A stretch of DNA of 14,964 bases from Candidatus Woesearchaeota archaeon (lineage in GTDB: Archaea; Nanobdellota; Nanobdellia; Woesearchaeales; GW2011-AR4), in contig JAGVXS010000039.1 in the NCBI GenBank assembly GCA_018303685.1, positions 1 to 14,964 of the forward strand, given 5' to 3'. Numbering within the stretch: the stretch's first letter is position 1; each line of letters starts with the position of its first letter. The notes below the pieces were generated by a model, which ran no database searches, was not told the DNA's origin, and saw only the letters and a program-made list of their open reading frames with translations. This document shows, piece by piece, positions 1-12,715 of the stretch. Made by a program: the position numbers and the translations under genes.

Positions 1-1370
1 TTTGATGTAAGCAGTTTTTTCAGAAGTACAATCTGCTCAATCATGTCAGTCTTTTCGCTTATCTGTGCCATTGGCTTTACCTTCATCTCATCAAGCCTTT
101 TGATTGCGCAATCCCCATATGCAACAAGCCTTTCTTTGCCTTCAAGCATTTCCCCTGAAAGCACGGAGCCCATTACAAGATTAAGCTGTTCTCCCCTCAA
201 TCCAATAAGCCTTGATGTTGCATTGAACATTGCGTTCAGGCATGCAGGGCAGGCTTTTCCGTCAATAACCTTGATGTCAGGATGCGGGGTTTCTTCTGCA
301 ACCGGCTTTTTTATGGGGTATTTTAATGCATCAAGCTCGTTGCCGACAATTTCAATATCTTTTATCGCATTTTTGCCTAGCTTTATGTAAGGCGGGATTT
401 CAAGCATGGATGCTTTGCAGAAAACAGCATCAAGCATTGCTGGATTTCTGCCTGCATAAACAAGGTTAAGGAAAGCCGGCTCTCCAAGAGTTAATGGACC
501 CTGCCCCTGCATTCCGCTTGTTGCATCAGCTATTGTAATCACATTCAATGCATTAACAAGCTTTGGCAGTGTCTCATCTATATTGTCAAAGTACATCCTT
601 CTCTGGGTAGGCTCGTCGCAAAGCCTTGACAAGTTTTCCACTGCCCCTGACAATCCAATCTGGGAGTTTGTCTTCATTATAGGGGCATTGATGATTTTCC
701 TGTTCAATGTTTCCTTAAGAATCTTAAATTTGTATCCGTCGCTTTCAATCTCCTCAAAGGGGCCTTTTGAAATGTCAGCAAAGCTTATGTCATTCTTTTT
801 GCAAACTTCAAGTATGCCTGCCTTTGAAGCAGCATCCATTGAATCCGAGCCGATTAGCGCCTGCTCCGCTATCATAATGTTTTCTTTGCTAATCCCATGC
901 TCCAGCAGAGCCAAAATCAGCGCATTCAGAAAATCTGGATTTGTGTTTACAGCCTGATATGGATAAGCAGCAGCCACAATGCTCGGCTTGACTAAAATCT
1001 TGTCGTCTTTGCCCAAATCAATCCTGTTCAAAAGCCCAACAGCATCTTTAATCGCTTCATAAATATCATACTTTACTTTTACAACAGCAACAGCATCTTT
1101 GCCCTTTGCTCTTTGCTCGACATAATCATCTCCAATCTTGTAATCCTTCATAGTTTTTTTAGGCATCCTGTTGCCGTGCTCATCCTCAAGAAGCAGGACA
1201 TTATATGGTATGATTGGGTGCATGGGAGAGGGAATTGCAACCTTTGTAATGCCTGCAACCCTTATCTTGGCGCCTTTCTGCTTGATTACAGGTCCTTTGC
1301 AGTAAACACATTTTTCAATAGGGTAAATCCATTTCTTGCTGCATTTTTCACATATCCACCTTATTATCAT
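1..1370 (-). CDS. DUF35-type zinc-ribbon/OB-fold domain fused to a DUF362 domain protein (C-terminus cut by the window edge; missing from the supplied ORF track)
   Basis: Manual minus-strand translation from ATG 1370-1368 gives 456 uninterrupted codons down to position 3. I checked positions 3-420 codon by codon for in-frame stops and found none. N-terminus is MIIRWICEKCSKKWIYPIEKCVYCKGPVIKQKGAKIRVAGITKV...PYNVLLLEDEHG, i.e. a CxxC-x10-CxxC ribbon (1299-1352) plus an OB-like segment, as in thiolase-associated DUF35 proteins. From about aa 115 the DUF362 pattern appears: KILVKPSIV, IMKTNSQIGLSGAVENL, ITIADATSGMQGQGPLTLG, RNPAMLDAVFCKA. An extra C-terminal region contains GKACPAC and YGDC. The ATGA start/stop overlaps the thiolase stop. 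GGTGGGGG SD lies at 1372-1379. Confidence 0.8.
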   Translation of the reverse strand, partial: MIIRWICEKCSKKWIYPIEKCVYCKGPVIKQKGAKIRVAGITKVAIPSPMHPIIPYNVLLLEDEHGNRMPKKTMKDYKIGDDYVEQRAKGKDAVAVVKVKYDIYEAIKDAVGLLNRIDLGKDDKILVKPSIVAAAYPYQAVNTNPDFLNALILALLEHGISKENIMIAEQALIGSDSMDAASKAGILEVCKKNDISFADISKGPFEEIESDGYKFKILKETLNRKIINAPIMKTNSQIGLSGAVENLSRLCDEPTQRRMYFDNIDETLPKLVNALNVITIADATSGMQGQGPLTLGEPAFLNLVYAGRNPAMLDAVFCKASMLEIPPYIKLGKNAIKDIEIVGNELDALKYPIKKPVAEETPHPDIKVIDGKACPACLNAMFNATSRLIGLRGEQLNLVMGSVLSGEMLEGKERLVAYGDCAIKRLDEMKVKPMAQISEKTDMIEQIVLLKKLLTS

Positions 1371-2491
1371 GCCCCCACCTTCTTCAGGATATGCACAGTA
1401 ACTGTGCTTCCTGCCCCGCCTATATTATGTGCCAGCGCATAATTTACATTATCAACCTGCCTGTCGCCAGCCTGTTTTCGCATCTGCTTCGCAAGATCGT
1501 AAACCTGTGCAATTCCTGTTGCGCTTATCGGGTGGCCTTTTGCCTTCAGCCCGCCGCTTGTATTCACAGGCAGCTTTCCATTTAAGTTGACTGTGCCTTT
1601 CCTTATCATGTACTTGCCTTCTCCTTTTTTGCAAAACCCCAAATCCTCATAGGAAATAACCTCAACAGGAGTGAAGGCATCGTGCAATTCAGCAACATCG
1701 ATATCACTAGGAGACAAATTTGCCTGTTTGTAAGCTTCTTCCGCGGCAAGTTTGCTGGCTTGCCATGAAGTCATGTCCTCGTTTTCAAAAGCTGAAAGCC
1801 TGTCAACATATAGGCTTGAGCCTGCTATCTCAATATCTGTTTTTTCTTTTGTCAGAATAGCTGCGGCAGCGCCATTGACAGACAAGCTGCAGTCAAAAAG
1901 CCTTAATGGAGATGCAACAACAGGAGACTTCTTTATCTGCTTTAATGTAACCTGCCTTTTGTAAAACCTTGCCTTTGGATTCAGATAAGCGTTGCTGTGG
2001 TTTTTAAAAGCAACCAATGCAAAATCATCTGTTGTAGCGCCATACCTGAGCATGTACTGTTGCGCAACCAAGGCGTTCTGTGCAGGAAAAATCAGTCCAT
2101 CAGCCTGCTCATACAATCTTTCAGCTGCCATAAGGATTTCGTCTGTTGTATTTGCAGTGTTATTGGACAGCAGCCTTTCAGAGCCAACAACAAGCACATT
2201 CTCATAACCCATTTTATTTGCTGTCCAGATTGCTGAACCTCCTCCGCCGCAGACAGCAGATGATGTTAGTATGGGAACCTTCTTTTTGAACATGCTGCTT
2301 AAAATCGAGGAAAACCCCCTCTGCCTTTCACCACTGCTTTCATTGTCAACAGTTGATGAGACAATAGCATCTATATCTTCCATATTAAAATTAGCGTCTT
2401 CCAACGCCTCCATTGTAGCTTCATAGACAAGCTCCTGGCTTGTATCTGTCTGTGCCCCGAACTTTGTCATGCCAACTCCTTTTACGTACAT
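1367..2491 (-). CDS. Thiolase-superfamily acetyl-CoA C-acyltransferase, SCP-x / DUF35-associated archaeal type
   Basis: 374 aa. N-terminus YVKGVGMTKFG. Nucleophile Cys81 in SSAVCGGGGSA (codon 2249-2251). ELHDAF, KGHPISATG and C-terminal AHNIGGAGS are typical of SCP-x/archaeal thiolases that lack the second catalytic Cys. GAGGGG SD lies 9 nt upstream. Confidence 0.9.
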   Translation of the reverse strand: MYVKGVGMTKFGAQTDTSQELVYEATMEALEDANFNMEDIDAIVSSTVDNESSGERQRGFSSILSSMFKKKVPILTSSAVCGGGGSAIWTANKMGYENVLVVGSERLLSNNTANTTDEILMAAERLYEQADGLIFPAQNALVAQQYMLRYGATTDDFALVAFKNHSNAYLNPKARFYKRQVTLKQIKKSPVVASPLRLFDCSLSVNGAAAAILTKEKTDIEIAGSSLYVDRLSAFENEDMTSWQASKLAAEEAYKQANLSPSDIDVAELHDAFTPVEVISYEDLGFCKKGEGKYMIRKGTVNLNGKLPVNTSGGLKAKGHPISATGIAQVYDLAKQMRKQAGDRQVDNVNYALAHNIGGAGSTVTVHILKKVGA

Positions 2492-2504: not shown

Positions 2505-2996
2505 CTACCTCGCGAATTTTGACCTGAACTCTGCCCTGTTTACAATTGCCAGCATCAGCAAAGCCTCTGCCACCAAAGTGTCTTTTACAAACGCCTTGCC
2601 CTGAAGAATCGCCCCTCTTTCATCCTGGGCTATCAAATCCAGCTCGAACCTTGCAGTATCCCCAGGCAGTATAGGGGCCATGAATTTTACTTCTTTCATC
2701 TTGTAGGCAAGCACATCCTTCTCCTGATGGTTTGGGATATTGTTTCTCACAAGCAAAGTGCCTGCCTGCCCCATACCTTCAACAGTCAAAGCGCCTGGCA
2801 TTATTGGAAAGCCTACAAAATGGCCTTTAAGGAAATCCTCTTTGCCTGTGACATCCTTTTCAGCTACTATACTGCTACTCGTCAGGCTTATAACCCGGTC
2901 AATGAATAAAAAGTGCTCGTCATAGGGTATAATCTTCTTGATGTTATCTGCGTTTATTCCGCCATCCGCGTTTTTCAGCTCGTTAAACCGGCTCAT
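2505..2996 (-). CDS. fabZ: FabZ-like hotdog-fold 3-hydroxyacyl-thioester dehydratase
   Basis: 163 aa. FabZ core motif LKGHFVGFPIMPGALTVEGMGQAG, with His59 (2820-2822) and Glu73 (2778-2780) 14 residues apart as in bacterial FabZ. N-terminal IPYDEHFLFIDRV corresponds to LPHRYPFLLVDRV. Confidence 0.85.
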   Translation of the reverse strand: MSRFNELKNADGGINADNIKKIIPYDEHFLFIDRVISLTSSSIVAEKDVTGKEDFLKGHFVGFPIMPGALTVEGMGQAGTLLVRNNIPNHQEKDVLAYKMKEVKFMAPILPGDTARFELDLIAQDERGAILQGKAFVKDTLVAEALLMLAIVNRAEFRSKFAR

Positions 2997-3060: not shown

Positions 3061-3081
3061 TATAATAAAATAGTTATTATA
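3061..3081. promoter_or_regulatory. Perfect 8-5-8 inverted repeat (candidate operator) between the divergent TATA boxes
   Basis: TATAATAA (3061-3068), AATAG, TTATTATA (3074-3081); the arms are exact reverse complements. The background is very A/T-rich, so a chance occurrence is plausible. Confidence 0.3.
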
Positions 3082-3112
3082 AAGTATATCCATTACTGGA
3101 AAACACAAAAAT

Positions 3113-3124
3113 CTTTATAAAAAG
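3113..3124 (+). promoter_or_regulatory. TATA-like box for accC-birA
   Basis: CTTTATAAAAAG, centred about 26 nt upstream of ATG 3144. This spacing fits a leaderless or very short-leader mRNA. Confidence 0.5.
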
Positions 3125-3143
3125 AGAAGCAAAAGCATGCTGT

Positions 3144-5063
3144 ATGCTTAAGGGAAAAAAATTAGTGAGCAAGTCAGCGAGCTTGAGGCGCAAATTAGTA
3201 TTGGACATCATCAACAGGGCTTTGAAGCCTTTGGAGAGTATGTATATAGCCTTGGCAGGCTCTGCTAAAAAAACCAAAGAGATGTTTCCTGCCTTATACA
3301 GGCACTTTGAAGAGCTGATTAAGCAGCATATAATCACGCCAGGTAAAAGCATTTTTAACTCATCAAAAATAGGCGGCATGGGCGGCTTTATAACAACCAA
3401 TGTCATGAAAAGGCTGCCGCATATCGACGAAGCCCAGATAGAAGAAATACTCGGCAACCCCTCAAATAAGTCATTTCTGGAAATACTTACGAGGGGATTC
3501 GGCATAAACAGAGATAAGGAGAAAACATATACCAAACTTGGCAACGGTAGCTTCAAGAGAATATTAATTGCAAACAGGGGAGAGATAGCACTGCGCATAA
3601 TAAGAGCGTGCCGCGAACTGGGCATAGAAAGCATCGCAATTTATTCTGATGAAGAAAAAGACAGCCTGGTTGTGAAGTTCGCAGACAAGTCCTACAACAT
3701 AGGCAAGCCGAAGAACTACCTCAACATCAAGAAAATAGTTGAGATAGCAAAGCAAAGCGAATGCGATGCAATCCATCCCGGTTACGGGTTCCTTTCAGAA
3801 AACCCCAAGTTTGCAAGGCTATGCGAGAAAAGGGGCATAAAATTCATAGGTCCGTCTTCAAGGATGATAGGGAAGCTTGGAAACAAAATAGAGGCGAAAA
3901 ATGCAATGCTCAAGGCAAACATCCCGGTAATAGAAGGAGTTAAAGAAGATCTAAAGAGCAAGAGGCATGCACTAAGGGCTGCAAGAAGGAGCGGATTTCC
4001 CGTCATACTAAAAGCATCTGCAGGAGGCGGAGGCAAAGGGATGAGGATTGTCGAAAGGGAAGAGGATGTTTTTAATGCCTACGAAAGCGCAGAGAAAGAG
4101 GCGTTAAACTCTTTTGGCAGCAGCTCGCTGTACATAGAAAAATACCTTGAAGAGCCAAAGCACATAGAGTTCCAGATTTTGGCTGACAGGCATGGAAATG
4201 TCATCCATCTTGGGGAGAGGGACTGCAGCATACAGAGAAGGCACCAGAAGCTGATAGAGGAGGCGCCAAGCCCTGCACTTGACAATGAGCTAAGGGAATT
4301 GATGGGCGCTGCTGCCGTGAATGCAATAACGGCTATAGGCTATGAAGGGGCAGGCACTGTGGAATTCTTGCTGGACAAGAACAGGAATTTCTATTTTATA
4401 GAGATGAACACAAGAATACAGGTTGAGCATGGCGTTACAGAAATGGTGACAAATGTAGATTTGATAAAGGAGCAGATAAAACTCGCCGAAGGAGCCAAGC
4501 TTGCTTACAATCAGGAAGACATAAAGGTAGAGGGGCATGCAATTGAATGCAGGATAAATGCAGAGGACCCAAGCAACAATTTTGCGCCTTCTCCGGGCAC
4601 TGTCGTCAACTACCTGCCTCCGGGAGGGCCCGGCATCAGGATAAGCAGCTCGTGCCATACGGGCTGCAGGATTCTGCCGCAATTTGACTCTTTAATCGCC
4701 TTGCTTATCTGCCACGGCAGGACAAGGCACGAGGCAATAGCCAGGATGAGAAGGGCTTTGGACGAGTTTATTATTGAGGGGGTAAAAACTACGACGCCGT
4801 TCCACAAGCTTGTGCTTAGCAAGAGGCAATTCCTGAAGGGAAATGTTGCAACATCTTTTATAGAAAACAATATGATAATGGAGGAGATGAAAGGATTAAA
4901 GCAGAAAAAAGAGGCTTTGCCGAAAGAGAAAAAAGTGCTTATAGTAACAACAGCAGTCGCGCAGTACCTTGTGAAAAAACAGGATGCACCAGGCAAAAAA
5001 ATAAATCCATGGGTGATGGCAGCGAGGCAGGAAGCGCTGAATGAGGGAAGCCTTGAAGAATAG
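3144..5063 (+). CDS. accC: Biotin carboxylase (ATP-grasp) subunit of an acyl-CoA carboxylase, with a ~136-aa N-terminal extension and a ~63-aa C-terminal tail
   Basis: 639 aa. From aa 137: FKRILIANRGEIALRIIRACRELGI, HPGYGFLSEN, glycine-rich lid KASAGGGGKGMRIV, EMNTRIQVEHGVTE, IECRINAEDP. TATA-like box 3113-3124 lies about 26 nt upstream of ATG 3144. The nearest internal in-frame ATG (3405) would still leave about 50 extra residues. Confidence 0.93.
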   Translation: MLKGKKLVSKSASLRRKLVLDIINRALKPLESMYIALAGSAKKTKEMFPALYRHFEELIKQHIITPGKSIFNSSKIGGMGGFITTNVMKRLPHIDEAQIEEILGNPSNKSFLEILTRGFGINRDKEKTYTKLGNGSFKRILIANRGEIALRIIRACRELGIESIAIYSDEEKDSLVVKFADKSYNIGKPKNYLNIKKIVEIAKQSECDAIHPGYGFLSENPKFARLCEKRGIKFIGPSSRMIGKLGNKIEAKNAMLKANIPVIEGVKEDLKSKRHALRAARRSGFPVILKASAGGGGKGMRIVEREEDVFNAYESAEKEALNSFGSSSLYIEKYLEEPKHIEFQILADRHGNVIHLGERDCSIQRRHQKLIEEAPSPALDNELRELMGAAAVNAITAIGYEGAGTVEFLLDKNRNFYFIEMNTRIQVEHGVTEMVTNVDLIKEQIKLAEGAKLAYNQEDIKVEGHAIECRINAEDPSNNFAPSPGTVVNYLPPGGPGIRISSSCHTGCRILPQFDSLIALLICHGRTRHEAIARMRRALDEFIIEGVKTTTPFHKLVLSKRQFLKGNVATSFIENNMIMEEMKGLKQKKEALPKEKKVLIVTTAVAQYLVKKQDAPGKKINPWVMAARQEALNEGSLEE

Positions 5064-5811
5064 TTTTTACAGTTCTTTGGATAATAGCTATATGAAGTGC
5101 AAAATTTACCGCTTCAAATCATTGAAGTCCACTCAAGACAAAGCCAAGGAATTTTCCAAGAAAGGACTAAAAAATATTGTTATTGTCGCTGATGCGCAGA
5201 TAAAAGGGAGAGGGCGCTTCAAAAGAAAATGGCACTCTGCCAAAGGAGGCTTGTGGATGTCAATCTTACTTTCGCCAAAAAAAGCGGAAAATCTGCAATA
5301 CCTGACATTTGCCGCGGCAATAGCAGTTGTCAAGTCCATTAAAAAAATGACAGGCATCAGCACAAAAATAAAATGGCCCAATGACGTCCATTACAACGGC
5401 AGGAAATTGTGCGGCATTCTTACAGAAGGGATTTTTCCAGCTAATTATGCTGTTATAGGGATTGGTGTTAATGTCAACCAAAGCAAATTTCCCAATGAAA
5501 TAAAAAACACCGCTATATCACTCAAAATGATTAAAAACCAAACAATATACATTAAAAAACTGATTAGAAATATACTTTATGAATTTTTCAACTTATATAA
5601 TAATTATTACAATAAAAATAAATTTGAAAAAATATCAAAAATCTGGAAAATGCATTGTGATACAATAAACAGGGACGTAACCGCAATCACAAGAGCTGGC
5701 AGATTAAGCGGGAAGGCAATAGGCATCGATGAAGAAGGCAGCCTGCTGCTGAAAACAGGCAAAAGCAATGTAGTTAAAGTTGCAGAGGGAGACATAAGCA
5801 TCAGGTACTAA
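5041..5811 (+). CDS. birA: Biotin--[acetyl-CoA-carboxylase] ligase, class I (no N-terminal DNA-binding domain)
   Basis: Biotin-binding loop KGRGRFKRKWHSAKGGLWMSILLSP (GRGR codons 5206-5217). KWPNDV motif. C-terminal SH3-like end VAEGDISIRY. Start is uncertain: ATG 5041 overlaps accC by 23 nt and has AGGAAG upstream; ATG 5092 is the alternative (239 aa). Confidence 0.88.
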   Translation: MREALKNSFYSSLDNSYMKCKIYRFKSLKSTQDKAKEFSKKGLKNIVIVADAQIKGRGRFKRKWHSAKGGLWMSILLSPKKAENLQYLTFAAAIAVVKSIKKMTGISTKIKWPNDVHYNGRKLCGILTEGIFPANYAVIGIGVNVNQSKFPNEIKNTAISLKMIKNQTIYIKKLIRNILYEFFNLYNNYYNKNKFEKISKIWKMHCDTINRDVTAITRAGRLSGKAIGIDEEGSLLLKTGKSNVVKVAEGDISIRY

Positions 5812-5850: not shown

Positions 5851-6081
5851 ATGGCGATTTTGAAGAGCATACCAATATTAAAAAAGCTTGTGGACATGGC
5901 ATACGCAATATTGGTAGTGATTGTCTTAAGCGCCTTGGTCGGACTGATTCTGGCGTTTCCTGTCAAACTGCTCTGGAACTATGTGTTCGGGAGCTATCTC
6001 ACAATCAACTGGTTTCAGGCATGGGCCCTGAATGTCCTGACAGGAATACTTTTAAGCAAAACCGGAAACGGAAAAAGGTGA
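5851..6081 (+). CDS. Small hypothetical membrane protein (76 aa, two predicted TM helices)
   Basis: Hydrophobic segments AYAILVVIVLSALVGLILAF and WFQAWALNVLTGILL. TATA-like box 5816-5829 lies about 29 nt upstream of the ATG. Its stop is 4 nt before the bioY ATG, and the bioY SD (GGTGA) lies inside its last codons. Confidence 0.55.
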   Translation: MAILKSIPILKKLVDMAYAILVVIVLSALVGLILAFPVKLLWNYVFGSYLTINWFQAWALNVLTGILLSKTGNGKR

Positions 6082-6085
6082 TGAT

Positions 6086-6739
6086 ATGATAACTGCAAAC
6101 AAAAACAAGACTTTGTACGAGATTCTGTTTCATCAAAGTACAATAATGCTTGATGTTTTTATGATACTTGCAAGCGTTGTTTTTATGGCGGCAATGGCAA
6201 ACATTACAATACCAGCCTCATACATAGCGGCTATGGAGAAGATGTTCCATATACCGCTTTGGCCGGTGCCCATCACAATGCAGACTTTTGGTGTTTTTAT
6301 TGTTACATTCTTCTTCGGCTCAAGAAAAGGATTGATTGCGATGGCTGCATATGCCCTTGCCGGGCTCCTCGGCTTTGGGGTTTTTGCAGGCCACAAGTCG
6401 GGAGTTGATGTATTTTTGAAAGCCAGCGAAGGATTCAAGCTTGCCCCGTCAGGCGGATATATAATAGGATTTTTGCTTATGGCGTTCCTTGTGGGGATTA
6501 TGATAGAGAAAGGCTACGGGAGAACAGGAAAAAGCATATTGCTGTGCATGCTTGTTGGTGAGATTGTGTTATATACAATCGGCCTTCCTTGGCTTTGGAT
6601 AGCGCTCGGAAAGATATCATGGCTTCAGGTCCTCAAATTCGGCTTGGTTCCTTTCATCATAGGAGACACACTGAAGGCACTGCTCGCAGCTGCATTGTTC
6701 CCTTATATGTGGAAAGGGGCAGAGAAGATAGGCAAGTAA
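6086..6739 (+). CDS. bioY: Biotin transporter BioY (ECF-type S component, here without visible A/T components)
   Basis: 217 aa, multi-TM. PVPITMQTFGVFIVTFFFGSRKG, AGLLGFGVFAG and GGYIIGFLLMAFLVG match the BioY family pattern. It sits in the biotin ligase / carboxylase context. Confidence 0.85.
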   Translation: MITANKNKTLYEILFHQSTIMLDVFMILASVVFMAAMANITIPASYIAAMEKMFHIPLWPVPITMQTFGVFIVTFFFGSRKGLIAMAAYALAGLLGFGVFAGHKSGVDVFLKASEGFKLAPSGGYIIGFLLMAFLVGIMIEKGYGRTGKSILLCMLVGEIVLYTIGLPWLWIALGKISWLQVLKFGLVPFIIGDTLKALLAAALFPYMWKGAEKIGK

Positions 6740-6746
6740 GCATTGC

Positions 6747-7136
6747 TCATTCTATTATTGCAAGCACATCGCCCCTGTTCACATTGTCATTTTTCTTTAC
6801 CTTAACATCTTTTAATACACCATCCTTAGGCGCGGTTACCTCATTCTCCATTTTCATAGCCATCAGTATAAACAGGCTCTGCCCCTGCTTTACCCTTGCG
6901 CCTTCTTTGGCTTTTATTTCGTAAATAATCCCGGGAAGAGGCGCTGTTATTTCAGTAGCCCCCTCACTTATCTTCTGCCTTTTTTGCAGCCTGTCAATTG
7001 CGGATGTTTCAGCATCTTTTTTTGTCTCAACTTCGTAAACATCAGAGCCGCAGTGCACAAGTATTTTGCCCTCTTCTGTTTCCTCTACAAAAACCTTGTA
7101 TTCCCTGCCGTCAACCTTAACAACAAGCTCTTCCAT
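6747..7136 (-). CDS. accB: Biotin carboxyl carrier protein (short, 1.3S-like type)
   Basis: 129 aa. Biotinyl domain APLPGIIYEIKAKEGARVKQGQSLFILMAMKMENEVTAPKDGVLKDVKV. Biotinyl-Lys95 codon AAA lies at 6852-6854. N-terminal VKVDGREYKVFVEE resembles short transcarboxylase-type carriers. The ATG is 2 nt after the carboxyltransferase stop. Confidence 0.9.
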   Translation of the reverse strand: MEELVVKVDGREYKVFVEETEEGKILVHCGSDVYEVETKKDAETSAIDRLQKRQKISEGATEITAPLPGIIYEIKAKEGARVKQGQSLFILMAMKMENEVTAPKDGVLKDVKVKKNDNVNRGDVLAIIE

Positions 7137-7138
7137 GT

Positions 7139-8656
7139 TTACAATGGCATGTTTCCGTGTTTTTTTGCCGGCTTTTTTTCTCTTTTAGAAAGCAGCATTT
7201 CAAGGCACTTGACCATGGCAATCCTTGTGTTTTTTGGCTCAATTATCATATCAATTTTTCCGAGGCTTGCTGCACTATAGGGGTTAAGGTATTTTTCCGA
7301 GTACTGCCTTGATAGCTCAGATTTCAGCTTCGGGTTTTTGCTTAGCTCATCCTTGTTTATTATACTGACTGCCTGCTCAGCGCCCATGACTGCAATCTCG
7401 GCCATTGGCCACGCTATAACCTTGTCAAAGCCCATCCCCTTTGAGACAAGTGCGATGTAAGCCCCCCCATACGCTTTTCTAAGCACAAGCGATATTTTTG
7501 GCACAGTCGCCTCGGAATAGGCGTAAAGCACCTTTGCGCCGTGCCTTATTATGCCATTATGCTCCTGCTCTGTGCCGGGCAAATAACCAGTGACATCAAC
7601 AAGATTTATGAGCGGTATGTTGAAGCAGTCGCAAAATCTCACAAATCTTGAAATCTTGTCAGAGGAGTTAATGTCAAGGCAGCCCGCCAGCACCTTCGGC
7701 TGGTTGGCTACAACTCCAACAACATAGCCGTTAAGCCTTGCAAACCCGATAACCGCATTTTGCGCGTAATTCGCCCCAACCTCAAAAAAGGATTTTTTGT
7801 CAAAAATCTCTATGATGACATCTTTTATATCATAAGTCTTTTTTGGGTCTTCCGGAACAATGCCCTGAAGCCTTTTTGTTTCTCTTGCCGGAATGTCTGT
7901 GGAATGATAAGGGGGGCTCTCAAGATTATTCTGGGGGAGATAGCTCAGCAAAATCTTTATCATGTCCAAGCATTGCTTTTCATTTTCTGCCATGAAATGC
8001 GCTACGCCGCTTTTCTCATTTTGGACTGATGCGCCCCCCAGCCCCTCAAAGTCAATTGCCTCGCCAGTGACTGTTTTTATTACATCAGGACCTGTAATGA
8101 ACATGTAGCTTGTTTTATTCACCATAAAAACAAAGTCAGTCAAAGCAGGGCTGTAAACGGCAATACCTGCGCAAGGGCCAAGTATTGCAGATATCTGCGG
8201 TACAATGCCTGAAGACAAAGTGTTAAGCTGAAATATCCTGCCGCCGCCTTCCAGGGCGGAAATTCCTTCCTGTATCCTTGCCCCTCCTGAGTCAAACAAG
8301 CCGATGCACGGGCATCCTGTTTTCAATGCCAGCTCCATCACATGGGCTATTTTTTCGTTGTGAGTATTGCCCATCGAGCCGCCCATAAAGGAGAAGTCCT
8401 GTGCGTAGACATAAACAGGCTTTTTGCTTATTGTGCCATAGCCGGCTACAACACCATCACCATACCTTCTTTTTGCCTCAAGCTCCTTGCTTTGCAGCTC
8501 TGCAAAAGCATCAAGCTCTGCAAAAGAGCCTGTATCAAGAAGGTGCTTAAGGCGCTCTCTTGCAGTAAGCTTGCCTTTTTTGTGCTGCACTTCGGCAGCG
8601 TGCTTGTCATCAAGCGCTTTGCTCCTTTCAAGAAACTCCCTAACCTTCTCCCCCAT
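7139..8656 (-). CDS. pccB: Acyl-CoA carboxylase carboxyltransferase subunit (PccB/AccD5/MmdA family)
   Basis: 505 aa. KGKLTARERLKHLLDTGSFAELDAF, FDSGGARIQEG and a second-half AYGGAYIAL. This is the two-crotonase-fold CT length. TATA-like TTTTTAAA (minus strand; 8679-8686) lies about 26 nt upstream of the ATG. Confidence 0.93.
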   Translation of the reverse strand: MGEKVREFLERSKALDDKHAAEVQHKKGKLTARERLKHLLDTGSFAELDAFAELQSKELEAKRRYGDGVVAGYGTISKKPVYVYAQDFSFMGGSMGNTHNEKIAHVMELALKTGCPCIGLFDSGGARIQEGISALEGGGRIFQLNTLSSGIVPQISAILGPCAGIAVYSPALTDFVFMVNKTSYMFITGPDVIKTVTGEAIDFEGLGGASVQNEKSGVAHFMAENEKQCLDMIKILLSYLPQNNLESPPYHSTDIPARETKRLQGIVPEDPKKTYDIKDVIIEIFDKKSFFEVGANYAQNAVIGFARLNGYVVGVVANQPKVLAGCLDINSSDKISRFVRFCDCFNIPLINLVDVTGYLPGTEQEHNGIIRHGAKVLYAYSEATVPKISLVLRKAYGGAYIALVSKGMGFDKVIAWPMAEIAVMGAEQAVSIINKDELSKNPKLKSELSRQYSEKYLNPYSAASLGKIDMIIEPKNTRIAMVKCLEMLLSKREKKPAKKHGNMPL

Positions 8657-10070: not shown

Positions 10071-11315
10071 ATGGAAGACGTCATAATGCTCGGGTCAGGC
10101 ATACTTTTCGGTATTTTGTTTTTGTTCCTCACATTCATTTTTCTTATATTTACAATTTCCTGGTTTTTCAAGGGAAACAGAAGCGGCTTTGAGCCGAAAG
10201 TAACTATTGTAATACCAGCCTATAACGAAGAGAATAACATCACCGAATGCATAGATTCCATCTTCAGCTCCAGCTATAAGAAAAACAAGATGGAGGTCAT
10301 CGTGGTTGATGACGGCTCAAAAGACAATACATTAACCGTGCTCAGAAAATATAAAGAGGTTAAAATACTGAGGCAGAACCATCTTGGAAAGGTAGAAGCG
10401 CTGAATAAAGGAGTTTTGAGATCTTCCAATGAATTTATTGTGACTATTGATGCAGACACAGTGCTTGACAAAAACTGCATAAGGGAGCTTGTCAGCCCTT
10501 TTCATGACGGGAATATAGGCGCAACTACAGGCAACAACAATGTCAAGAACAACAAGTCCATTATCAGCGCATTCCAGAACATTGAATACCATTTCAGCAA
10601 CTTAATAAGAAACAGCTTTTCCAAAGTTTTCAGCAACGGCATATGGTTCAGCGGCTCTTTGGCATGCTACAGGAAAAAATCACTGGAAAAAATCGGCTAT
10701 TTCAAAAAAGACACACTTGCAGAGGACCAGGATATTGCACTGGAGATGAAAAAAGCAGGCTGCAAAACATTAAATACGCCAAAAGCGATAGGATACACGC
10801 TTGTGCCGACAAAAGTCAGCGACCTGTACAGGCAGAGGGCAAGGTGGTGGATAGGCACTTTGCAGGCTATAGTAAAAAATAAGTCGCTTTTCTCGAGGAA
10901 GTCAAGCCCGTCAATACTGTTCCTTTACATAAACCAGTTTTGGTGGTCCTTTTACGCGTTTCTGTCCTTGCCACTGATAGTGTACCAGATAAACTACTGG
11001 CTGCCATACAATTCACAGGGCATGTTCAGCATGCTCGGCTATTTTTTCAAGTGGCTGAGCCTCATGGGGCCAATATATGTGCTATACAAAATTCCCGATT
11101 TTGGAGTGTCATTGTACAGCATCTTCGGCGTTTTGTCAGGCATTATGACAACGATATTAAGCATAGCTGCGTTAAAAATGTTCAATGACAGGGTTAGCCT
11201 GAAAAACGTGCTTGCAATATTTTTTTACTTTCCATATACAATAGTTTTAAATATAATAATCTTAGTCAGCCTGTTAAGGAACAGGTTTTGGGAAGAAAGC
11301 TATTATATCAAGTGA
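10071..11315 (+). CDS. Membrane-integrated processive family-2 glycosyltransferase, NodC/IcaA/PgaC/chitin-synthase-like
   Basis: 414 aa. N-terminal TM, then VTIVIPAYNEE, VVDDGSKD, GKVEALNKG, DAD (10449-10457), AEDQDIALEMKKAG and QRARW (10833-10847), followed by about 4 C-terminal TM helices. Confidence 0.88.
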   Translation: MEDVIMLGSGILFGILFLFLTFIFLIFTISWFFKGNRSGFEPKVTIVIPAYNEENNITECIDSIFSSSYKKNKMEVIVVDDGSKDNTLTVLRKYKEVKILRQNHLGKVEALNKGVLRSSNEFIVTIDADTVLDKNCIRELVSPFHDGNIGATTGNNNVKNNKSIISAFQNIEYHFSNLIRNSFSKVFSNGIWFSGSLACYRKKSLEKIGYFKKDTLAEDQDIALEMKKAGCKTLNTPKAIGYTLVPTKVSDLYRQRARWWIGTLQAIVKNKSLFSRKSSPSILFLYINQFWWSFYAFLSLPLIVYQINYWLPYNSQGMFSMLGYFFKWLSLMGPIYVLYKIPDFGVSLYSIFGVLSGIMTTILSIAALKMFNDRVSLKNVLAIFFYFPYTIVLNIIILVSLLRNRFWEESYYIK

Positions 11316-11321
11316 GCCAAA

Positions 11322-12671
11322 ATGCTAAAAGAAATTTTACAGCAATTCATCCAGAATTACATAGCATTAGTAACAGAATTCTTTTCATGGTATAATGCTG
11401 CAGGGAGGAGAATACTCGACTTTTTGCACAATATGTTTAATGGCGCATTCAACGCTTTGCTTTTAGTAGCTGTTTTGATGTCAGTGCTTTACCTGATAAT
11501 GTCTTTTTACATACTCTTCAAGAAGCGCGAGCAGAAGCAGGAAGAGCCAGTTGATGATGAAAACCTGCCTTTGGTTACGGTGCAGATTCCGACCTTTAAC
11601 GAGCTCGTTGCTATAAGGTGCGCGAAAAGCTGCCTTGGCTTTGATTACCCTAAAGACAGGTACGAGATTCTCATAGGGGACGACAGCAACAGGCCTGAAA
11701 TTTCAAGGAAGCTGAAGGAATTTGCTAAGCAGCACAGCTTGGTGAAAGTGATAAAAAGGCAGAGCAATATCGGGTACAAGCCTGGCAACCTGAACAACAT
11801 GCTAAAATACTCAAAAGGGGAAATTATTGTGATTTTTGACTCTGACTTTGCGCCGCAGCCCGATTTCCTGAAAAGGATAGTCAAGCCTTTCATGAAAGAC
11901 AAAAAGATTGCAGGAGTGCAGGCAAGATGGAAGCTCATCAATTACAACCAAAACCTTGTGTCTGTGCTGGGCTCTACAATAGTGTCAACATGCCATCATA
12001 TTACAATACCCTTTATGTACCAAAGGAGGGGGATAACCTTCCTTTGCGGCTCTGCCGAAGCAGTAAGGAAAAGCGTGCTTGCAGAGATTGGCTGCTGGGA
12101 AAGCGGCAACCTGACTGAAGACATAGAGTTCTCACTCAGGCTGCTTGAGAGGGGCTACAAGATAGAGTATCTGGACGACTTGGAGTGCGACAGCGAAGTT
12201 CCATACACGCTCAAGGATCTTTACAAACAGCAAATGAGATGGGCGTATGGGGTTATCTACTCCTGGAAAAAGCACTTTATAGCAATAGCAAAGAGCAGAC
12301 ACCTTCGCTTGATGGACAAGATGTACATGGGGATTATATTCTGCAGCGGGTATATGCTCTCAGTCCTTCTTGCAGGGCTCTTTATAACAGGCACTCTCAG
12401 CTTTATGACGCATGCTCCTGCGCCTATAGAATGGGGAAGGTTTTTTTACGAGATGGCAAGAAACATCATATTAACCAGCGGCTTGATTGTGTCAAGCATA
12501 GTTGCGCTTGCAAAGGCCAACAAGTCAAGGCTGACGCTTCCTATGATAGCATCATCATTCAGCTACGGAATTGTAGTGACCTATTATGTAAATGTAGGCA
12601 TTTTCAAGGCATTGTCAAAAACACCAATGGAATGGTACATGCTTAACAAGCAGGGCAATAAGATTGACTGA
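11322..12671 (+). CDS. Membrane-integrated processive family-2 glycosyltransferase, cellulose-synthase-like (Csl/BcsA-like core)
   Basis: 449 aa. VTVQIPTFNE, IGDDSN, GYKPGNLNNML, FDSDF, TEDIEFSLRL and QQMRW (12228-12242), with C-terminal TM helices. It starts 6 nt after the preceding GT2 gene. Confidence 0.88.
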   Translation: MLKEILQQFIQNYIALVTEFFSWYNAAGRRILDFLHNMFNGAFNALLLVAVLMSVLYLIMSFYILFKKREQKQEEPVDDENLPLVTVQIPTFNELVAIRCAKSCLGFDYPKDRYEILIGDDSNRPEISRKLKEFAKQHSLVKVIKRQSNIGYKPGNLNNMLKYSKGEIIVIFDSDFAPQPDFLKRIVKPFMKDKKIAGVQARWKLINYNQNLVSVLGSTIVSTCHHITIPFMYQRRGITFLCGSAEAVRKSVLAEIGCWESGNLTEDIEFSLRLLERGYKIEYLDDLECDSEVPYTLKDLYKQQMRWAYGVIYSWKKHFIAIAKSRHLRLMDKMYMGIIFCSGYMLSVLLAGLFITGTLSFMTHAPAPIEWGRFFYEMARNIILTSGLIVSSIVALAKANKSRLTLPMIASSFSYGIVVTYYVNVGIFKALSKTPMEWYMLNKQGNKID

Positions 12672-12683
12672 TTCTTTAGAAAG

Positions 12684-12694
12684 TATTATTTATT
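12684..12694 (+). promoter_or_regulatory. TATA-like box for the GT-C glycosyltransferase gene
   Basis: TATTATTTATT is centred about 27 nt upstream of ATG 12716. Confidence 0.4.
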
Positions 12695-12702
12695 CTTGCG
12701 TA

Positions 12703-12709
12703 TTTTTTT
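12703..12709 (+). terminator. Oligo-T tract after the GT2-GT2 pair
   Basis: A T7 run starts 32 nt after the stop at 12671. It overlaps the next gene's promoter region, so its role is ambiguous. Confidence 0.3.
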
Positions 12710-12715
12710 AATAAA

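What the first reader, a model, noticed from the sequence alone, without database searches (positions are those of the whole stretch)
1..1370. Edge-truncated ORF missing from the ORF track: DUF35 scaffold fused to DUF362
The track shows only antisense shadow ORFs here. The minus strand, however, is open for 456 codons from ATG 1370 to the window edge. Residues 1-100 form the CxxC/CxxC ribbon plus OB fold typical of the thiolase-binding DUF35 protein. Residues ~115-345 carry the DUF362 pattern (KILVKPS, MKTNSQIGLSGAVENL, GMQGQGPLTLG). A further region follows with GKACPAC and YGDC. DUF362 has no assigned function. Fusing it to a domain whose known role is to dock onto a thiolase suggests DUF362 is a catalytic or redox partner working on the thiolase product. 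That would be a functional lead for an orphan family.
Basis: partly seen in the sequence, partly recalled or inferred. Interest (0 to 1): 0.75.

Follow-up and report, generated by a model that had tools for sequence, protein, structure and literature searches.

The report
Thiolase-docking protein fused to DUF362
The edge-cut gene is real and conserved in small groundwater archaea (Woesearchaeota): it joins a thiolase-docking module to a protein domain of unknown function, sits between two thiolase genes in a fatty-acid/lipid gene island, and gives the first usable clue to what that orphan domain family is connected with.

Summary
The minus strand is open for 456 codons from ATG 1370, which overlaps the stop of an upstream thiolase gene (ATGA). 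Only about 25 C-terminal residues are missing. More than 100 full-length homologues (~482 aa) and 31 GTDB species loci, all Woesearchaeota/Nanoarchaeota, rule out a frameshift.

DUF362 is solid (Pfam 87.5 bits). The N-terminus matches no Pfam DUF35 model. Its fold, however, matches only DUF35 proteins in the PDB, so it is a divergent DUF35-like dock.

Context is conserved: FabZ-like, thiolase-1, this gene, thiolase-2, methyltransferase and FabG-like reductase, beside acetyl-CoA carboxylase, GpsA and two PlsC.

The same dock is also fused to two unrelated ketoacyl reductases (HBD, SDR), and 50 of 56 testable dock genes in the metagenome loci have a same-strand thiolase upstream within the flank held. 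Docking onto thiolase is therefore well supported.

The redox-partner idea fits only distant relatives. Those keep a LarA-like His/Lys/His triad and four Cys, and they replace dock-reductase fusions in amino-sugar clusters. The window's protein has Asn/Glu/Tyr there and three Cys, and its operon already encodes a reductase and a dehydratase.

Most likely it is a scaffold or CoA-handling hub for a CoA-based fatty-acid synthase. It is a new variant of a known kind, and its biochemistry is untested.

The parts
1..1370 (-). Edge-truncated gene 'X' (456 of ~481 codons): DUF35-like dock + DUF362 + LarA-like C-terminal domain
   Evidence: Open frame. 99% identical to the 481-aa protein P0001. >=120 full-length homologues. 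31 genome loci.
1071..1370 (-). Dock module, aa 1-100: 4-Cys zinc ribbon followed by an OB-like barrel. It is the most conserved part of the protein.
   Evidence: Foldseek hits to DUF35 proteins only. No Pfam DUF35 hit. Mean pairwise identity is 78%, against 70% for DUF362 and 65% for the C-terminal domain. The module defines a family of 118 representatives at 50% identity.
1290..1358 (-). Zinc ribbon, aa 5-27 (C7, C10, C21, C24)
   Evidence: All four Cys are conserved in 119-120 of 120 family members and invariant across the diverse dock alignment A5.
414..998 (-). DUF362 domain (Pfam PF04015), aa 125-319
   Evidence: 87.5 bits against a cut-off of 24, covering model positions 1-200 of 200. 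LarA-superfamily fold.
591..674 (-). Segment aa 233-260, equivalent to the LarA cofactor triad. Here it reads K233-T234-N235 ... E245-N246 ... Y260. Relatives with the triad have KTH ... KN ... H.
   Evidence: HMMER alignment to the malate racemase Mar2 H171/K181/H197, which have the same spacing as LarA H174/K184/H200. N235, E245 and Y260 occur in 119, 120 and 116 of 120 family members. Table of variants.
3..338 (-). C-terminal alpha/beta domain, aa 345-456, cut by the window edge. It carries C374xxC377 and C421, the remnant of a four-Cys site.
   Evidence: AF2 model with pLDDT ~88-93 in this region. Foldseek alignments to LarA homologues span 335-500 columns, i.e. both lobes. Relatives have CxxC...C...GCPP, and several close relatives have lost all four Cys.
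1367..2491 (-). Thiolase-1 (SCP2/archaeal type), translationally coupled to X
   Evidence: Pfam Thiolase_C_1 and Thiolase_N; NCBIfam PRK06064. Cys nucleophile, N-H, HDxF and GHP motifs conserved in 24-25 of 25 orthologues. The overlap with X is 4 nt or 1 nt in most genomes.
2505..2996 (-). FabZ-like 3-hydroxyacyl dehydratase, first gene of the operon
   Evidence: Pfam FabA 76 bits; NCBIfam FabZ 104 bits against a cut-off of 113. Syntenic in nearly all loci.
3144..5063 (+). Biotin carboxylase (acetyl-CoA carboxylase subunit), divergently transcribed from the operon
   Evidence: accC TIGR00514, 642 bits against a cut-off of 626.5. Conserved synteny.
5041..5811 (+). Biotin-protein ligase BirA
   Evidence: Pfam BPL_LplA_LipB and BPL_C.
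6086..6739 (+). BioY biotin transporter. This slot is variable; other genomes carry an acyl-CoA thioesterase here or nothing.
   Evidence: Pfam BioY. Synteny table. Absent from L012.
6747..8656 (-). Biotin carboxyl carrier protein (6747-7136) and carboxyltransferase (7139-8656) of acetyl-CoA carboxylase
   Evidence: Pfam Biotin_lipoyl; Carboxyl_trans 593 bits.

Best explanation
X is the DUF35-type partner subunit of a thiolase-based condensing complex in a fatty-acid-synthase-like lipid island of Woesearchaeota.

Shown:
- Its N-terminal zinc ribbon plus OB module has the fold of DUF35 proteins, which in solved complexes sit on thiolase-type enzymes.
- The gene is translationally coupled to two paralogous thiolases that look catalytically intact.
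- The same module recurs fused to enzymes that take the thiolase product.

Inferred:
- The dock clamps thiolase-1 and thiolase-2 together, as PhlB/MucC do with two thiolase-fold proteins, or as the Sulfolobus KT/DUF35 pair does.
- It holds the LarA-fold DUF362 body at the shared CoA-binding site.
- In this protein the body has lost the LarA-type His/Lys/His positions and part of its Cys site. The operon also encodes its own ketoreductase and dehydratase. The body is therefore most likely a non-redox platform. It would bind the nucleotide end of (acyl/malonyl)-CoA, or the FabG-like and FabZ-like partners, so that intermediates are channelled and the unfavourable Claisen condensation is pulled forward.
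- Acyl-CoA products would then feed the neighbouring PlsC-type acyltransferases and GpsA-made glycerol-3-phosphate.
For: Fold:
- The full model (pLDDT 82) matches LarA homologues at E 6.5e-8 to 3e-5 over 335-500 columns.
- It also matches DUF35 proteins (BbsA, ChsH2-DUF35, archaeal thiolase/HMGCS DUF35, PhlB, MucABC-complex chains 9vbo_G/9vbt) with probability 1.0.
- The top 14 hits of the dock-only model are all DUF35 proteins, followed by a sharp drop in probability.

Gene order:
- FabZl > Thl1 > X > (SDR) > Thl2 > (CoA-transferase) > MT > SDR, beside ACC/BirA/BioY and often GpsA plus two PlsC, in about 30 species.
- Thl1-X and X-Thl2 junctions mostly overlap by 4 nt or 1 nt.
- The thiolase motifs (Cys nucleophile, N-H, HDxF, GHP) are conserved in 24-25 of 25 Thl1 and 26-28 of 28 Thl2 orthologues.

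Dock family:
- 118 representatives at 50% identity. About 44 are fused to DUF362, 25 to 3-hydroxyacyl-CoA dehydrogenase, at least one to an SDR ketoreductase, and none is a canonical DUF35.
- 50 of 56 dock genes with >=1.3 kb of upstream sequence have a same-strand thiolase upstream within the flank held (about 5 kb). Twelve of 14 HBD fusions are directly adjacent.

Loss of the LarA-type site: N235/E245/Y260 replace the H/K/H kept by triad-bearing relatives. Only three of four Cys are kept, and relatives at 41-50% identity have lost all four.

Other FAS steps are encoded separately:
- The SDR reaches the FabG equivalog cut-off.
- Short-form operons carry FabG, a FabZ-FabK fusion, FabK and PlsC.

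Precedent: in Sulfolobus a DUF35 protein mediates a complex of ketothiolase, SDR reductase and dehydratase (10.1101/2024.07.05.601840).

The dock is the most conserved region of the protein.
Against: - No physical interaction has been shown, and no multimer model could be run.
- Pfam DUF35 models do not match. Sequence links to DUF35 are marginal (E about 0.02; hhalign probability 38%).
- The triad mapping rests on one weak HMMER alignment (E=0.019), although the spacing matches exactly.
- The DUF362 body is highly conserved, with many invariant polar residues: K128, S130, E169, D199, R224, N228, K233, T234, E245, N246, D282, H363. That looks more like an active or ligand-binding site than inert scaffold.
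- No enoyl reductase gene is found in the Woesearchaeal island, so one catalytic slot is formally open.
- Whether these genomes lack ACP was not tested.
Confidence: 0.55

Rival explanations
1. First reader's reading. The DUF362 body of X is an active enzyme that converts the thiolase product (3-oxoacyl-CoA), for example a new kind of reductase or isomerase. It could instead supply the enoyl reductase missing from the island. The dock serves only to tether it.
For: - The same dock is fused to two unrelated ketoacyl reductases, HBD and SDR, directly downstream of thiolases.
- Triad-bearing long dock-DUF362 proteins occupy exactly that slot in amino-sugar clusters: thiolase > dock-DUF362 > hexapeptide or GNAT acyltransferase. 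This parallels thiolase > dock-HBD > the same acyltransferase families.
- X has many invariant polar residues.
- No enoyl reductase gene is present in the Woesearchaeal island.
- The LarA fold is a hydride-transfer scaffold (PMC11770544).
Against: - X has Asn/Glu/Tyr where LarA and triad-bearing DUF362 proteins have His/Lys/His.
- The Cys site is incomplete in X and absent in close relatives.
- Its operon already has a FabG-like reductase and a FabZ-like dehydratase.
- In short-form operons KS, KR, DH and ER are all encoded separately, yet dock-DUF362 is still present. The domain is therefore not simply one of the four cycle enzymes.
Confidence: 0.25
2. The operon (FabZ-like, two thiolases, X, BioC-like methyltransferase, FabG-like SDR) makes a pimeloyl thioester for biotin rather than membrane fatty acids. 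X would be a component of that dedicated elongation module.
For: - BirA, BioY and the ACC biotin enzymes are adjacent.
- In L003/L004 the neighbours are BioB-like (radical SAM + BATS), BioF-like and BioD-like genes.
- The methyltransferase has a weak BioC match (26 bits against a cut-off of 185).
- In short forms the X' gene overlaps bioY.
Against: - Acetyl-CoA carboxylase alone explains the biotin genes.
- Most genomes carry the BioY importer rather than biotin synthesis genes.
- GpsA and two PlsC acyltransferases, or PlsC in the short-form operons, point to glycerolipid synthesis.
- The BioC match is far below its cut-off.
Confidence: 0.08
3. The N-terminal zinc ribbon/OB is a nucleic-acid- or translation-factor-binding module, like the DUF35-fold protein Trf (Sso2509). 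X would be a regulator, not a metabolic subunit.
For: Trf (6htj) is the best Foldseek hit of the dock-only model. It also appears in the profile search at E=0.019.
Against: - Thiolase adjacency is overwhelming across all fusion types.
- The fusion partners are acyl-CoA enzymes.
- All other top fold hits are thiolase-bound DUF35 proteins.
Confidence: 0.03
4. The fusion is an assembly or sequencing artefact that joins two genes.
For: None found. The window does appear mosaic relative to L012, with a breakpoint inside thiolase-1.
Against: The ORF is colinear and full-length in >100 independent assemblies and 31 genomes. More distant relatives have the same architecture.
Confidence: 0.01

Closest known systems
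Archaeal acetoacetyl-CoA thiolase / HMG-CoA synthase / DUF35 complex (PDB 6ESQ/6ET9), and the related bacterial PhlABC and MucABC acyltransferases
   Same: A zinc-ribbon + OB protein is encoded next to SCP2/archaeal-type thiolases carrying Cys, HDxF and GHx motifs. In PhlABC/MucABC two different thiolase-fold proteins are bridged by the small subunit. X likewise lies between two thiolase genes. The fold match is direct.
   Different: - No HMG-CoA-synthase-type partner is present; both neighbours are thiolase paralogues.
- The dock lacks the N-terminal helices and fails the Pfam DUF35 models.
- It carries a ~380-aa LarA-fold extension.
- The same genomes keep a separate canonical DUF35 beside an HMGCS-like gene.
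Sulfolobus acidocaldarius fatty-acid synthase complex: ketothiolase/DUF35 + SDR ketoacyl-CoA reductase + MaoC dehydratase (bioRxiv 10.1101/2024.07.05.601840)
   Same: A CoA-based, ACP-independent scheme in which a DUF35 protein organises a thiolase with the next enzymes of the cycle. X's island likewise has thiolases, an SDR reductase and a dehydratase.
   Different: - Here the reductase and dehydratase are bacterial FabG/FabZ types rather than MaoC.
- Acetyl-CoA carboxylase is tightly linked.
- No enoyl reductase is seen in the island.
- The DUF35-like part is fused to DUF362.
Known DUF35 fusions: ChsH2 (MaoC hydratase-DUF35, Ltp2 complex, PDB 6OK1), and fusions to thiolase, SDR-like Rossmann, SCP2 and hot-dog domains listed for SSO2064 homologues (PMC2954200)
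   Same: The principle is the same: the thiolase-docking module is fused to an enzyme of the adjacent step. The dock-HBD and dock-SDR proteins found here follow it.
   Different: DUF362 is not among the reported fusion partners. In X the dock is N-terminal and belongs to a separate sequence family.
LarA superfamily (DUF2088; nickel-pincer-nucleotide 2-hydroxyacid racemases/epimerases, e.g. Mar2 PDB 6D6Z/7S91)
   Same: Two-lobed fold (Foldseek E 6.5e-8). DUF362 and DUF2088 share Pfam clan CL0471 (PMC11770544). Triad-bearing dock-DUF362 relatives align His/Lys/His with LarA H174/K184/H200.
   Different: X has Asn/Glu/Tyr at those positions, no DUF2088 Pfam hit, and no 2-hydroxyacid context. Cofactor biosynthesis genes were not examined.

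Membership tests
DUF35 (Pfam PF12172 zinc ribbon + PF01796 OB fold) | Four-Cys rubredoxin-like zinc ribbon immediately N-terminal to the barrel | tested here: met
   C7, C10, C21 and C24 are conserved in 119-120 of 120 family members and invariant across diverse docks. The model shows the ribbon strands.
DUF35 (Pfam PF12172 zinc ribbon + PF01796 OB fold) | OB-fold domain with the DUF35 topology | tested here: met
   Foldseek probability 1.0 to BbsA, ChsH2-DUF35, 6ESQ DUF35, PhlB, the MucABC complex and SSO2064. The top 14 hits of the dock-only model are all DUF35 proteins. Model confidence in this region is moderate (pLDDT 63-81).
DUF35 (Pfam PF12172 zinc ribbon + PF01796 OB fold) | Significant match to the family's sequence models | tested here: not met
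   No PF01796 or PF12172 hit at E<=10. The PDB profile search gives 6esq_E at E=0.017 only with a broadened profile. hhalign against Woesearchaeal DUF35 gives probability 38%.
DUF35 (Pfam PF12172 zinc ribbon + PF01796 OB fold) | N-terminal helical segments before the ribbon (SSO2064, PMC2954200) | tested here: not met
   The ribbon starts at residue 5-7.
DUF35 (Pfam PF12172 zinc ribbon + PF01796 OB fold) | Gene neighbourhood with a thiolase-superfamily gene | tested here: met
   ATGA overlap with thiolase-1. Synteny in about 30 species. 50 of 56 dock genes have a same-strand thiolase upstream within the flank held.
DUF35 (Pfam PF12172 zinc ribbon + PF01796 OB fold) | Physical complex with the thiolase | not testable with these tools
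   No multimer prediction or experiment was available.
DUF362 (Pfam PF04015) | Score above the Pfam gathering threshold over the whole model | tested here: met
   87.5 bits against a cut-off of 24, model positions 1-200 of 200.
DUF362 (Pfam PF04015) | Motifs seen in the four high-scoring relatives: KPN, KTH, KN(M)KG, DG..G.EG.GP. This motif set was taken from those relatives and not checked against the Pfam model itself. | tested here: inconclusive
   X has KPS, KTN, EN(L)SR and DAT.GMQGQGP. K128, K233, T234, N246, D282 and P292 are kept, while the His and the second Lys are replaced. Relatives with the full motifs score 165 bits.
LarA superfamily (nickel-pincer nucleotide enzymes) | Two-domain LarA fold | tested here: met
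   Foldseek E 6.5e-8 to 3e-5, 335-500 aligned columns, TM about 0.35-0.43.
LarA superfamily (nickel-pincer nucleotide enzymes) | Cofactor-tethering Lys (K184), nickel-ligand His (H200) and catalytic His (H174) | tested here: not met
   The aligned positions in X are E245, Y260 and N235, present in 120, 116 and 119 of 120 members. The alignment itself is weak (E=0.019).
LarA superfamily (nickel-pincer nucleotide enzymes) | LarB/LarC/LarE cofactor synthesis genes in the genome | not tested
   Only loci of up to about 21 kb were available. None is seen in them.
CoA-based archaeal fatty-acid synthase (Schmerling et al. 2024 type) | Thiolase plus DUF35-type partner, ketoacyl reductase, dehydratase and enoyl reductase | tested here: inconclusive
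   Thiolases, a FabG-like SDR and a FabZ-like dehydratase are present. No enoyl reductase is found in the Woesearchaeal island. FabK is present in the short-form operons.

The most novel reading that the evidence does not exclude
X and its short relatives may be the missing carrier of an ACP-free, bacterial-style fatty-acid synthase in these archaea. In this reading the DUF35-like dock clamps the thiolase. The LarA-fold domain has been stripped of its cofactor residues (Lys to Glu). It holds the nucleotide end of acyl-CoA so that the pantetheine arm swings between the thiolase, FabG, FabZ and FabK.

As a corollary, the DUF362 relatives that keep His/Lys/His plus four Cys would be cofactor-dependent hydride-transfer enzymes acting on 3-oxo- or 3-hydroxyacyl-CoA. 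They might use a nickel-pincer-type cofactor. That would be a third, non-homologous kind of ketoacyl reductase or epimerase.
Probability: 0.12. Interest if true: 0.85.

Novelty: new variant of a known kind. Interest (0 to 1): 0.62.

Why it matters
DUF362 is a large orphan family. The two searches of the held paper library (terms DUF362 and PF04015) found no assigned function; it appears only as the outgroup of the LarA racemases.

This gene family ties DUF362 physically and genomically to thiolase and acyl-CoA chemistry. It also yields a natural experiment. The same docking module is fused to HBD, to SDR, or to DUF362 in otherwise parallel gene clusters. That makes a concrete biochemical test possible.

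The gene also marks a conserved island in Woesearchaeota that combines acetyl-CoA carboxylase, thiolase-type condensing enzymes, bacterial-type FabG and FabZ, GpsA and PlsC. This island is relevant to how archaea on the bacterial side of the 'lipid divide' could make ester lipids, and to whether they do so without ACP.

Tried and rejected
- Pfam on residues 1-116 and 339-456 alone at E<=10 gave no DUF35 hit and nothing for the C-terminus.
- PDB sequence searches with the family-only profiles A2 and A1 gave only noise.
- The dock-only AF2 model was poor beyond residue ~70 (pLDDT 61). I used it only for ranking.
I repeated it with a narrower alignment.
- Dock fusions to unidentified C-terminal domains (P0187, P0201, P0211, the 266-aa family of L053) have no Pfam or PDB match.
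- The idea that DUF362 is simply the ketoreductase, dehydratase or enoyl reductase of the cycle is rejected for the short forms. All four activities are encoded separately beside them.
- I had suspected that thiolase-1 and thiolase-2 lack a catalytic base because they read HDAF rather than HDCF. I dropped this: the motif is HDxF and its His is the essential residue (PMC12960953).
- A 75-aa ORF was considered as a hidden ACP. It is a two-helix membrane protein.
- No additional widely conserved unlabelled gene exists in the island; the most widespread is in 8 loci.
- Cluster look-up gave no organism names for the distant relatives. Their taxonomy is not established here.
Full report
**Observation.** The minus strand from 1370 to the window edge translates into 456 residues without a stop. 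The ORF lister shows only + strand shadow ORFs because it omits ORFs that run off the end.

The start codon overlaps the stop codon of the upstream gene (ATGA) and follows a GGTGGGGG stretch. The product is 451/456 identical, gap-free, to a 481-aa metagenomic protein. Only about 25 residues are missing.

A search of 5.8 billion proteins returned 337 hits. The best 120 are nearly all 460-495 aa, 63-99% identical, and cover 90-100% of the query. Those that carry names are called DUF362 proteins of Woesearchaeota, Nanoarchaeota or Pacearchaeota. A scan of one genome per GTDB species found 31 loci. Those with a specific organism label are Woesearchaeota or Nanoarchaeota MAGs; about a dozen carry a generic 'uncultured Methanosarcinales' title but have the same gene order. 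The fusion is therefore real and not a frameshift.

**Domains.** Pfam gives DUF362 at 87.5 bits (cut-off 24) for residues 125-319, over the whole model. Nothing in Pfam matches residues 1-116 or 339-456, even at E<=10. A profile of the N-terminus finds nothing in the PDB by sequence.

An AlphaFold2 model built from 60 homologues has mean pLDDT 82. Foldseek against the PDB gives two clean groups:
- LarA-superfamily racemases (Mar2, LarA homologues; E 6.5e-8 to 3e-5). The alignments span 335-500 columns, so DUF362 and the C-terminal region together resemble both LarA lobes.
- DUF35 proteins: BbsA, ChsH2-DUF35, the DUF35 subunit of the archaeal thiolase/HMG-CoA synthase complex, PhlB and MucABC-complex chains (E 4e-4 to 8e-3, probability 1.0).

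The dock-only model is weaker (pLDDT 61). Even so, its top 14 PDB hits are exclusively DUF35 proteins, and probability then falls below 0.1. With a broader profile of the module, the 6ESQ DUF35 chain and the DUF35-fold protein Trf appear at E about 0.02. A profile-profile comparison with Woesearchaeal DUF35 proteins aligns the OB core at E=3e-4, probability 38%.

I conclude that residues 1-100 are a divergent DUF35-like zinc-ribbon/OB module. It lacks the N-terminal helices of SSO2064-type proteins (PMC2954200). It does not belong to the Pfam families as currently modelled.

**Genomic setting.** The window itself encodes, upstream on the same strand, an SCP2/archaeal-type thiolase and a FabZ-like dehydratase. 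Divergently it encodes biotin carboxylase, BirA, BioY, BCCP and carboxyltransferase.

Across about 30 species the order is conserved: CT, BCCP, (BioY or thioesterase), BirA and BC on one side. On the other side come FabZ-like, thiolase-1, X, (SDR), thiolase-2, (family III CoA-transferase), methyltransferase and SDR. Often these are followed by an HMGCS-like/thiolase-3/canonical DUF35/MaoC/SDR block, and by GpsA with two PlsC-type acyltransferases.

Further details:
- The SDR reaches the FabG equivalog cut-off, GpsA passes its models, and the thioesterase is YbgC/FadM-type.
- Thiolase-1/X and X/thiolase-2 junctions mostly overlap by 4 nt or 1 nt.
- Both thiolases keep the nucleophilic Cys, N-H, HDxF and GHP motifs in essentially all orthologues. 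These are the motifs of active DUF35-associated thiolases (PMC12960953).
- The literature had noted bacterial fatty-acid genes and G3P dehydrogenase in Woesearchaeota (PMC8204110; PMC6431249). Searches of the held library on DUF362, PF04015, DUF35 in archaea and Woesearchaeal lipid genes turned up no paper on this fusion.

**The dock is a family of its own.** A profile of the module, searched against 1.84 billion representative proteins, finds 118 hits. None examined is a canonical DUF35. By architecture they split as follows:
- About 44 carry DUF362. Ten of these also have the C-terminal lobe (460-495 aa); the rest are 320-380 aa.
- 25 carry 3-hydroxyacyl-CoA dehydrogenase (3HCDH_N + 3HCDH).
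- At least one carries a FabG-like SDR.
- About ten carry domains with no Pfam or PDB match.

In 77 further metagenome loci, 50 of 56 dock genes with enough upstream sequence have a same-strand thiolase upstream within the flank held. Twelve of 14 HBD fusions are directly adjacent. Fusion to two unrelated ketoacyl reductases, always next to a thiolase, is the strongest evidence that the module tethers a partner to a thiolase. This is the arrangement shown biochemically for the Sulfolobus KT/DUF35/reductase/dehydratase complex.

**What the DUF362 part does.** Two classes emerge.

Class one is represented by four distant long forms (P0147, P0156, P0158, P0191).
- They keep the motifs KPN, KTH and KNMKG, and a C-terminal CxxC...C...GCPP site.
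- A profile including them aligns, weakly (E=0.019), with the malate racemase Mar2. Their His, Lys and His fall on Mar2 H171/K181/H197. Those residues have exactly the 10- and 16-residue spacing of LarA H174/K184/H200. In LarA these are a catalytic His, the Lys that binds the nickel-pincer cofactor, and the nickel ligand (PMC11770544).
- These proteins lie in amino-sugar clusters as thiolase > dock-DUF362 > hexapeptide or GNAT acyltransferase. That parallels thiolase > dock-HBD or dock-SDR with the same acyltransferase families.

Class two is the window's family together with the short forms.
- They have Glu in place of the Lys and no His at either position: N235, E245 and Y260 in 119, 120 and 116 of 120 members.
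- X keeps three of the four Cys. Relatives at 41-50% identity, and P0120 partly, have lost them.
- Short forms sit in an operon of thiolase, dock-DUF362, (BioY), FabG, a FabZ-FabK fusion, FabK and PlsC. All four cycle activities are thus encoded separately.

The DUF362 body of X is therefore unlikely to be the reductase, dehydratase or enoyl reductase. It cannot use LarA-type chemistry. Its strong conservation, including an invariant E245-N246, still argues for a specific binding or catalytic site.

**Most likely mechanism.** X clamps the thiolase pair through its dock. Its nucleotide-binding-type LarA fold acts as a platform at the shared CoA site. It would hold the nucleotide end of acyl- or malonyl-CoA, or recruit the FabG and FabZ partners. 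The endergonic condensation is then pulled forward and intermediates are channelled towards acyl-CoA for the PlsC enzymes.

The docking part I rate at about 0.8. The whole statement I rate at 0.55. The enzyme reading for X stays at about 0.25, helped by the absence of an enoyl reductase gene in the Woesearchaeal island. A biotin/pimelate role (0.08), a translation-factor role (0.03) and an artefact (0.01) are minor.

**Novelty.** DUF35 fusions to thiolase, SDR-like, SCP2 and hot-dog domains are known, and DUF35-mediated thiolase complexes are well described. A DUF35-like dock fused to DUF362, a dock family outside the Pfam models, and its place between two thiolases in a Woesearchaeal lipid island were not found in the library searched. 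I class it as a new variant of a known kind. It gives a real functional lead for DUF362. It also raises a more speculative possibility: an ACP-free carrier role for the Glu-variant, and cofactor-dependent acyl-CoA chemistry for the triad-bearing variant.

Noticed in passing
L001:15759-19406 (also L013, L022, L032, L034, L125): There is a second block: HMGCS-like, thiolase-3, canonical DUF35, MaoC and SDR. Thiolase-3 has Asp or Glu in place of the nucleophilic Cys in 5 of 5 loci. Three of the five canonical DUF35 proteins have lost the zinc ribbon (~103 aa). This looks like a repurposed, possibly aldolase-like, complex rather than an acetoacetyl-CoA thiolase.
   Followed up: partly
P0147, P0156, P0158, P0191 (loci L041, L042, L124): These dock-DUF362 proteins keep His-x9-Lys-x15-His, aligning with LarA H174/K184/H200, plus a CxxC...C...GCPP site. 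This raises the question of whether DUF362 proteins with these motifs use a nickel-pincer-type or related cofactor. The alignment is weak (E=0.019).
   Followed up: partly
window 2060-2160 (inside thiolase-1), compared with L012: The window is 93% identical in DNA to Woesearchaeota contig JACOZN010000015 from RadA to the first third of thiolase-1. Identity then drops to 74% through the rest of thiolase-1 and X. This points to a recombination breakpoint or a chimeric assembly. A 122-nt piece of thiolase-1 also matches the thiolase-2 end of L012.
   Followed up: partly
window 5851-6081 (+); L001:4881-5105; L003:4858-5085: A conserved 75-76-aa protein with two hydrophobic helices and no Pfam match lies next to BirA in this island. 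In the window it sits between BirA and BioY; in L001 and L003 it sits beside the thioesterase gene.
   Followed up: partly
window 6086-6739 and the same slot in L001-L035: The slot between BCCP and BirA is variable. It holds BioY in some genomes, a YbgC/FadM-type acyl-CoA thioesterase in others, and nothing in L012.
   Followed up: partly
window 3144-3551 (first ~136 codons of the biotin carboxylase gene); antisense ORF 3077-3634: The biotin carboxylase carries an N-terminal extension of ~136 aa before the Biotin_carb_N domain, with no family match. Homologues are also 631-639 aa. The 185-aa antisense ORF has no match and is probably a shadow.
   Followed up: no
L003:16077-18346, and L005, L007, L015, L020, L023, L026, L027, L034: A bacterial-type NAD(P)H glycerol-3-phosphate dehydrogenase (GpsA) and two PlsC-type acyltransferases lie a few genes from the X operon in many Woesearchaeota. 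This implies sn-G3P ester lipid synthesis.
   Followed up: partly
L053:3940-4740 (also L054, L056, L062, L076); P0187, P0201, P0211: The dock is also fused to C-terminal domains with no Pfam or PDB sequence match. The 266-aa family sits 2 nt downstream of a thiolase. L064 carries a 100-aa stand-alone dock directly after a thiolase.
   Followed up: partly
L040:1253-2167, and 17 of the 49 short-form dock-DUF362 metagenome loci (L068-L121): A fused CTP_transf_like (PPAT-like) + DUF359 gene is divergently adjacent to short dock-DUF362 genes. From recalled knowledge, archaeal dephospho-CoA kinase belongs to DUF359, which would make this the last two steps of CoA synthesis; this was not checked here. 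It hints at a link to CoA supply.
   Followed up: no
window 10071-14107: Two family-2 glycosyltransferases and a PMT_2/GT22-like membrane glycosyltransferase form a separate glycan cluster downstream of RadA. They are followed by an HTH regulator and a UPF0047 gene.
   Followed up: no
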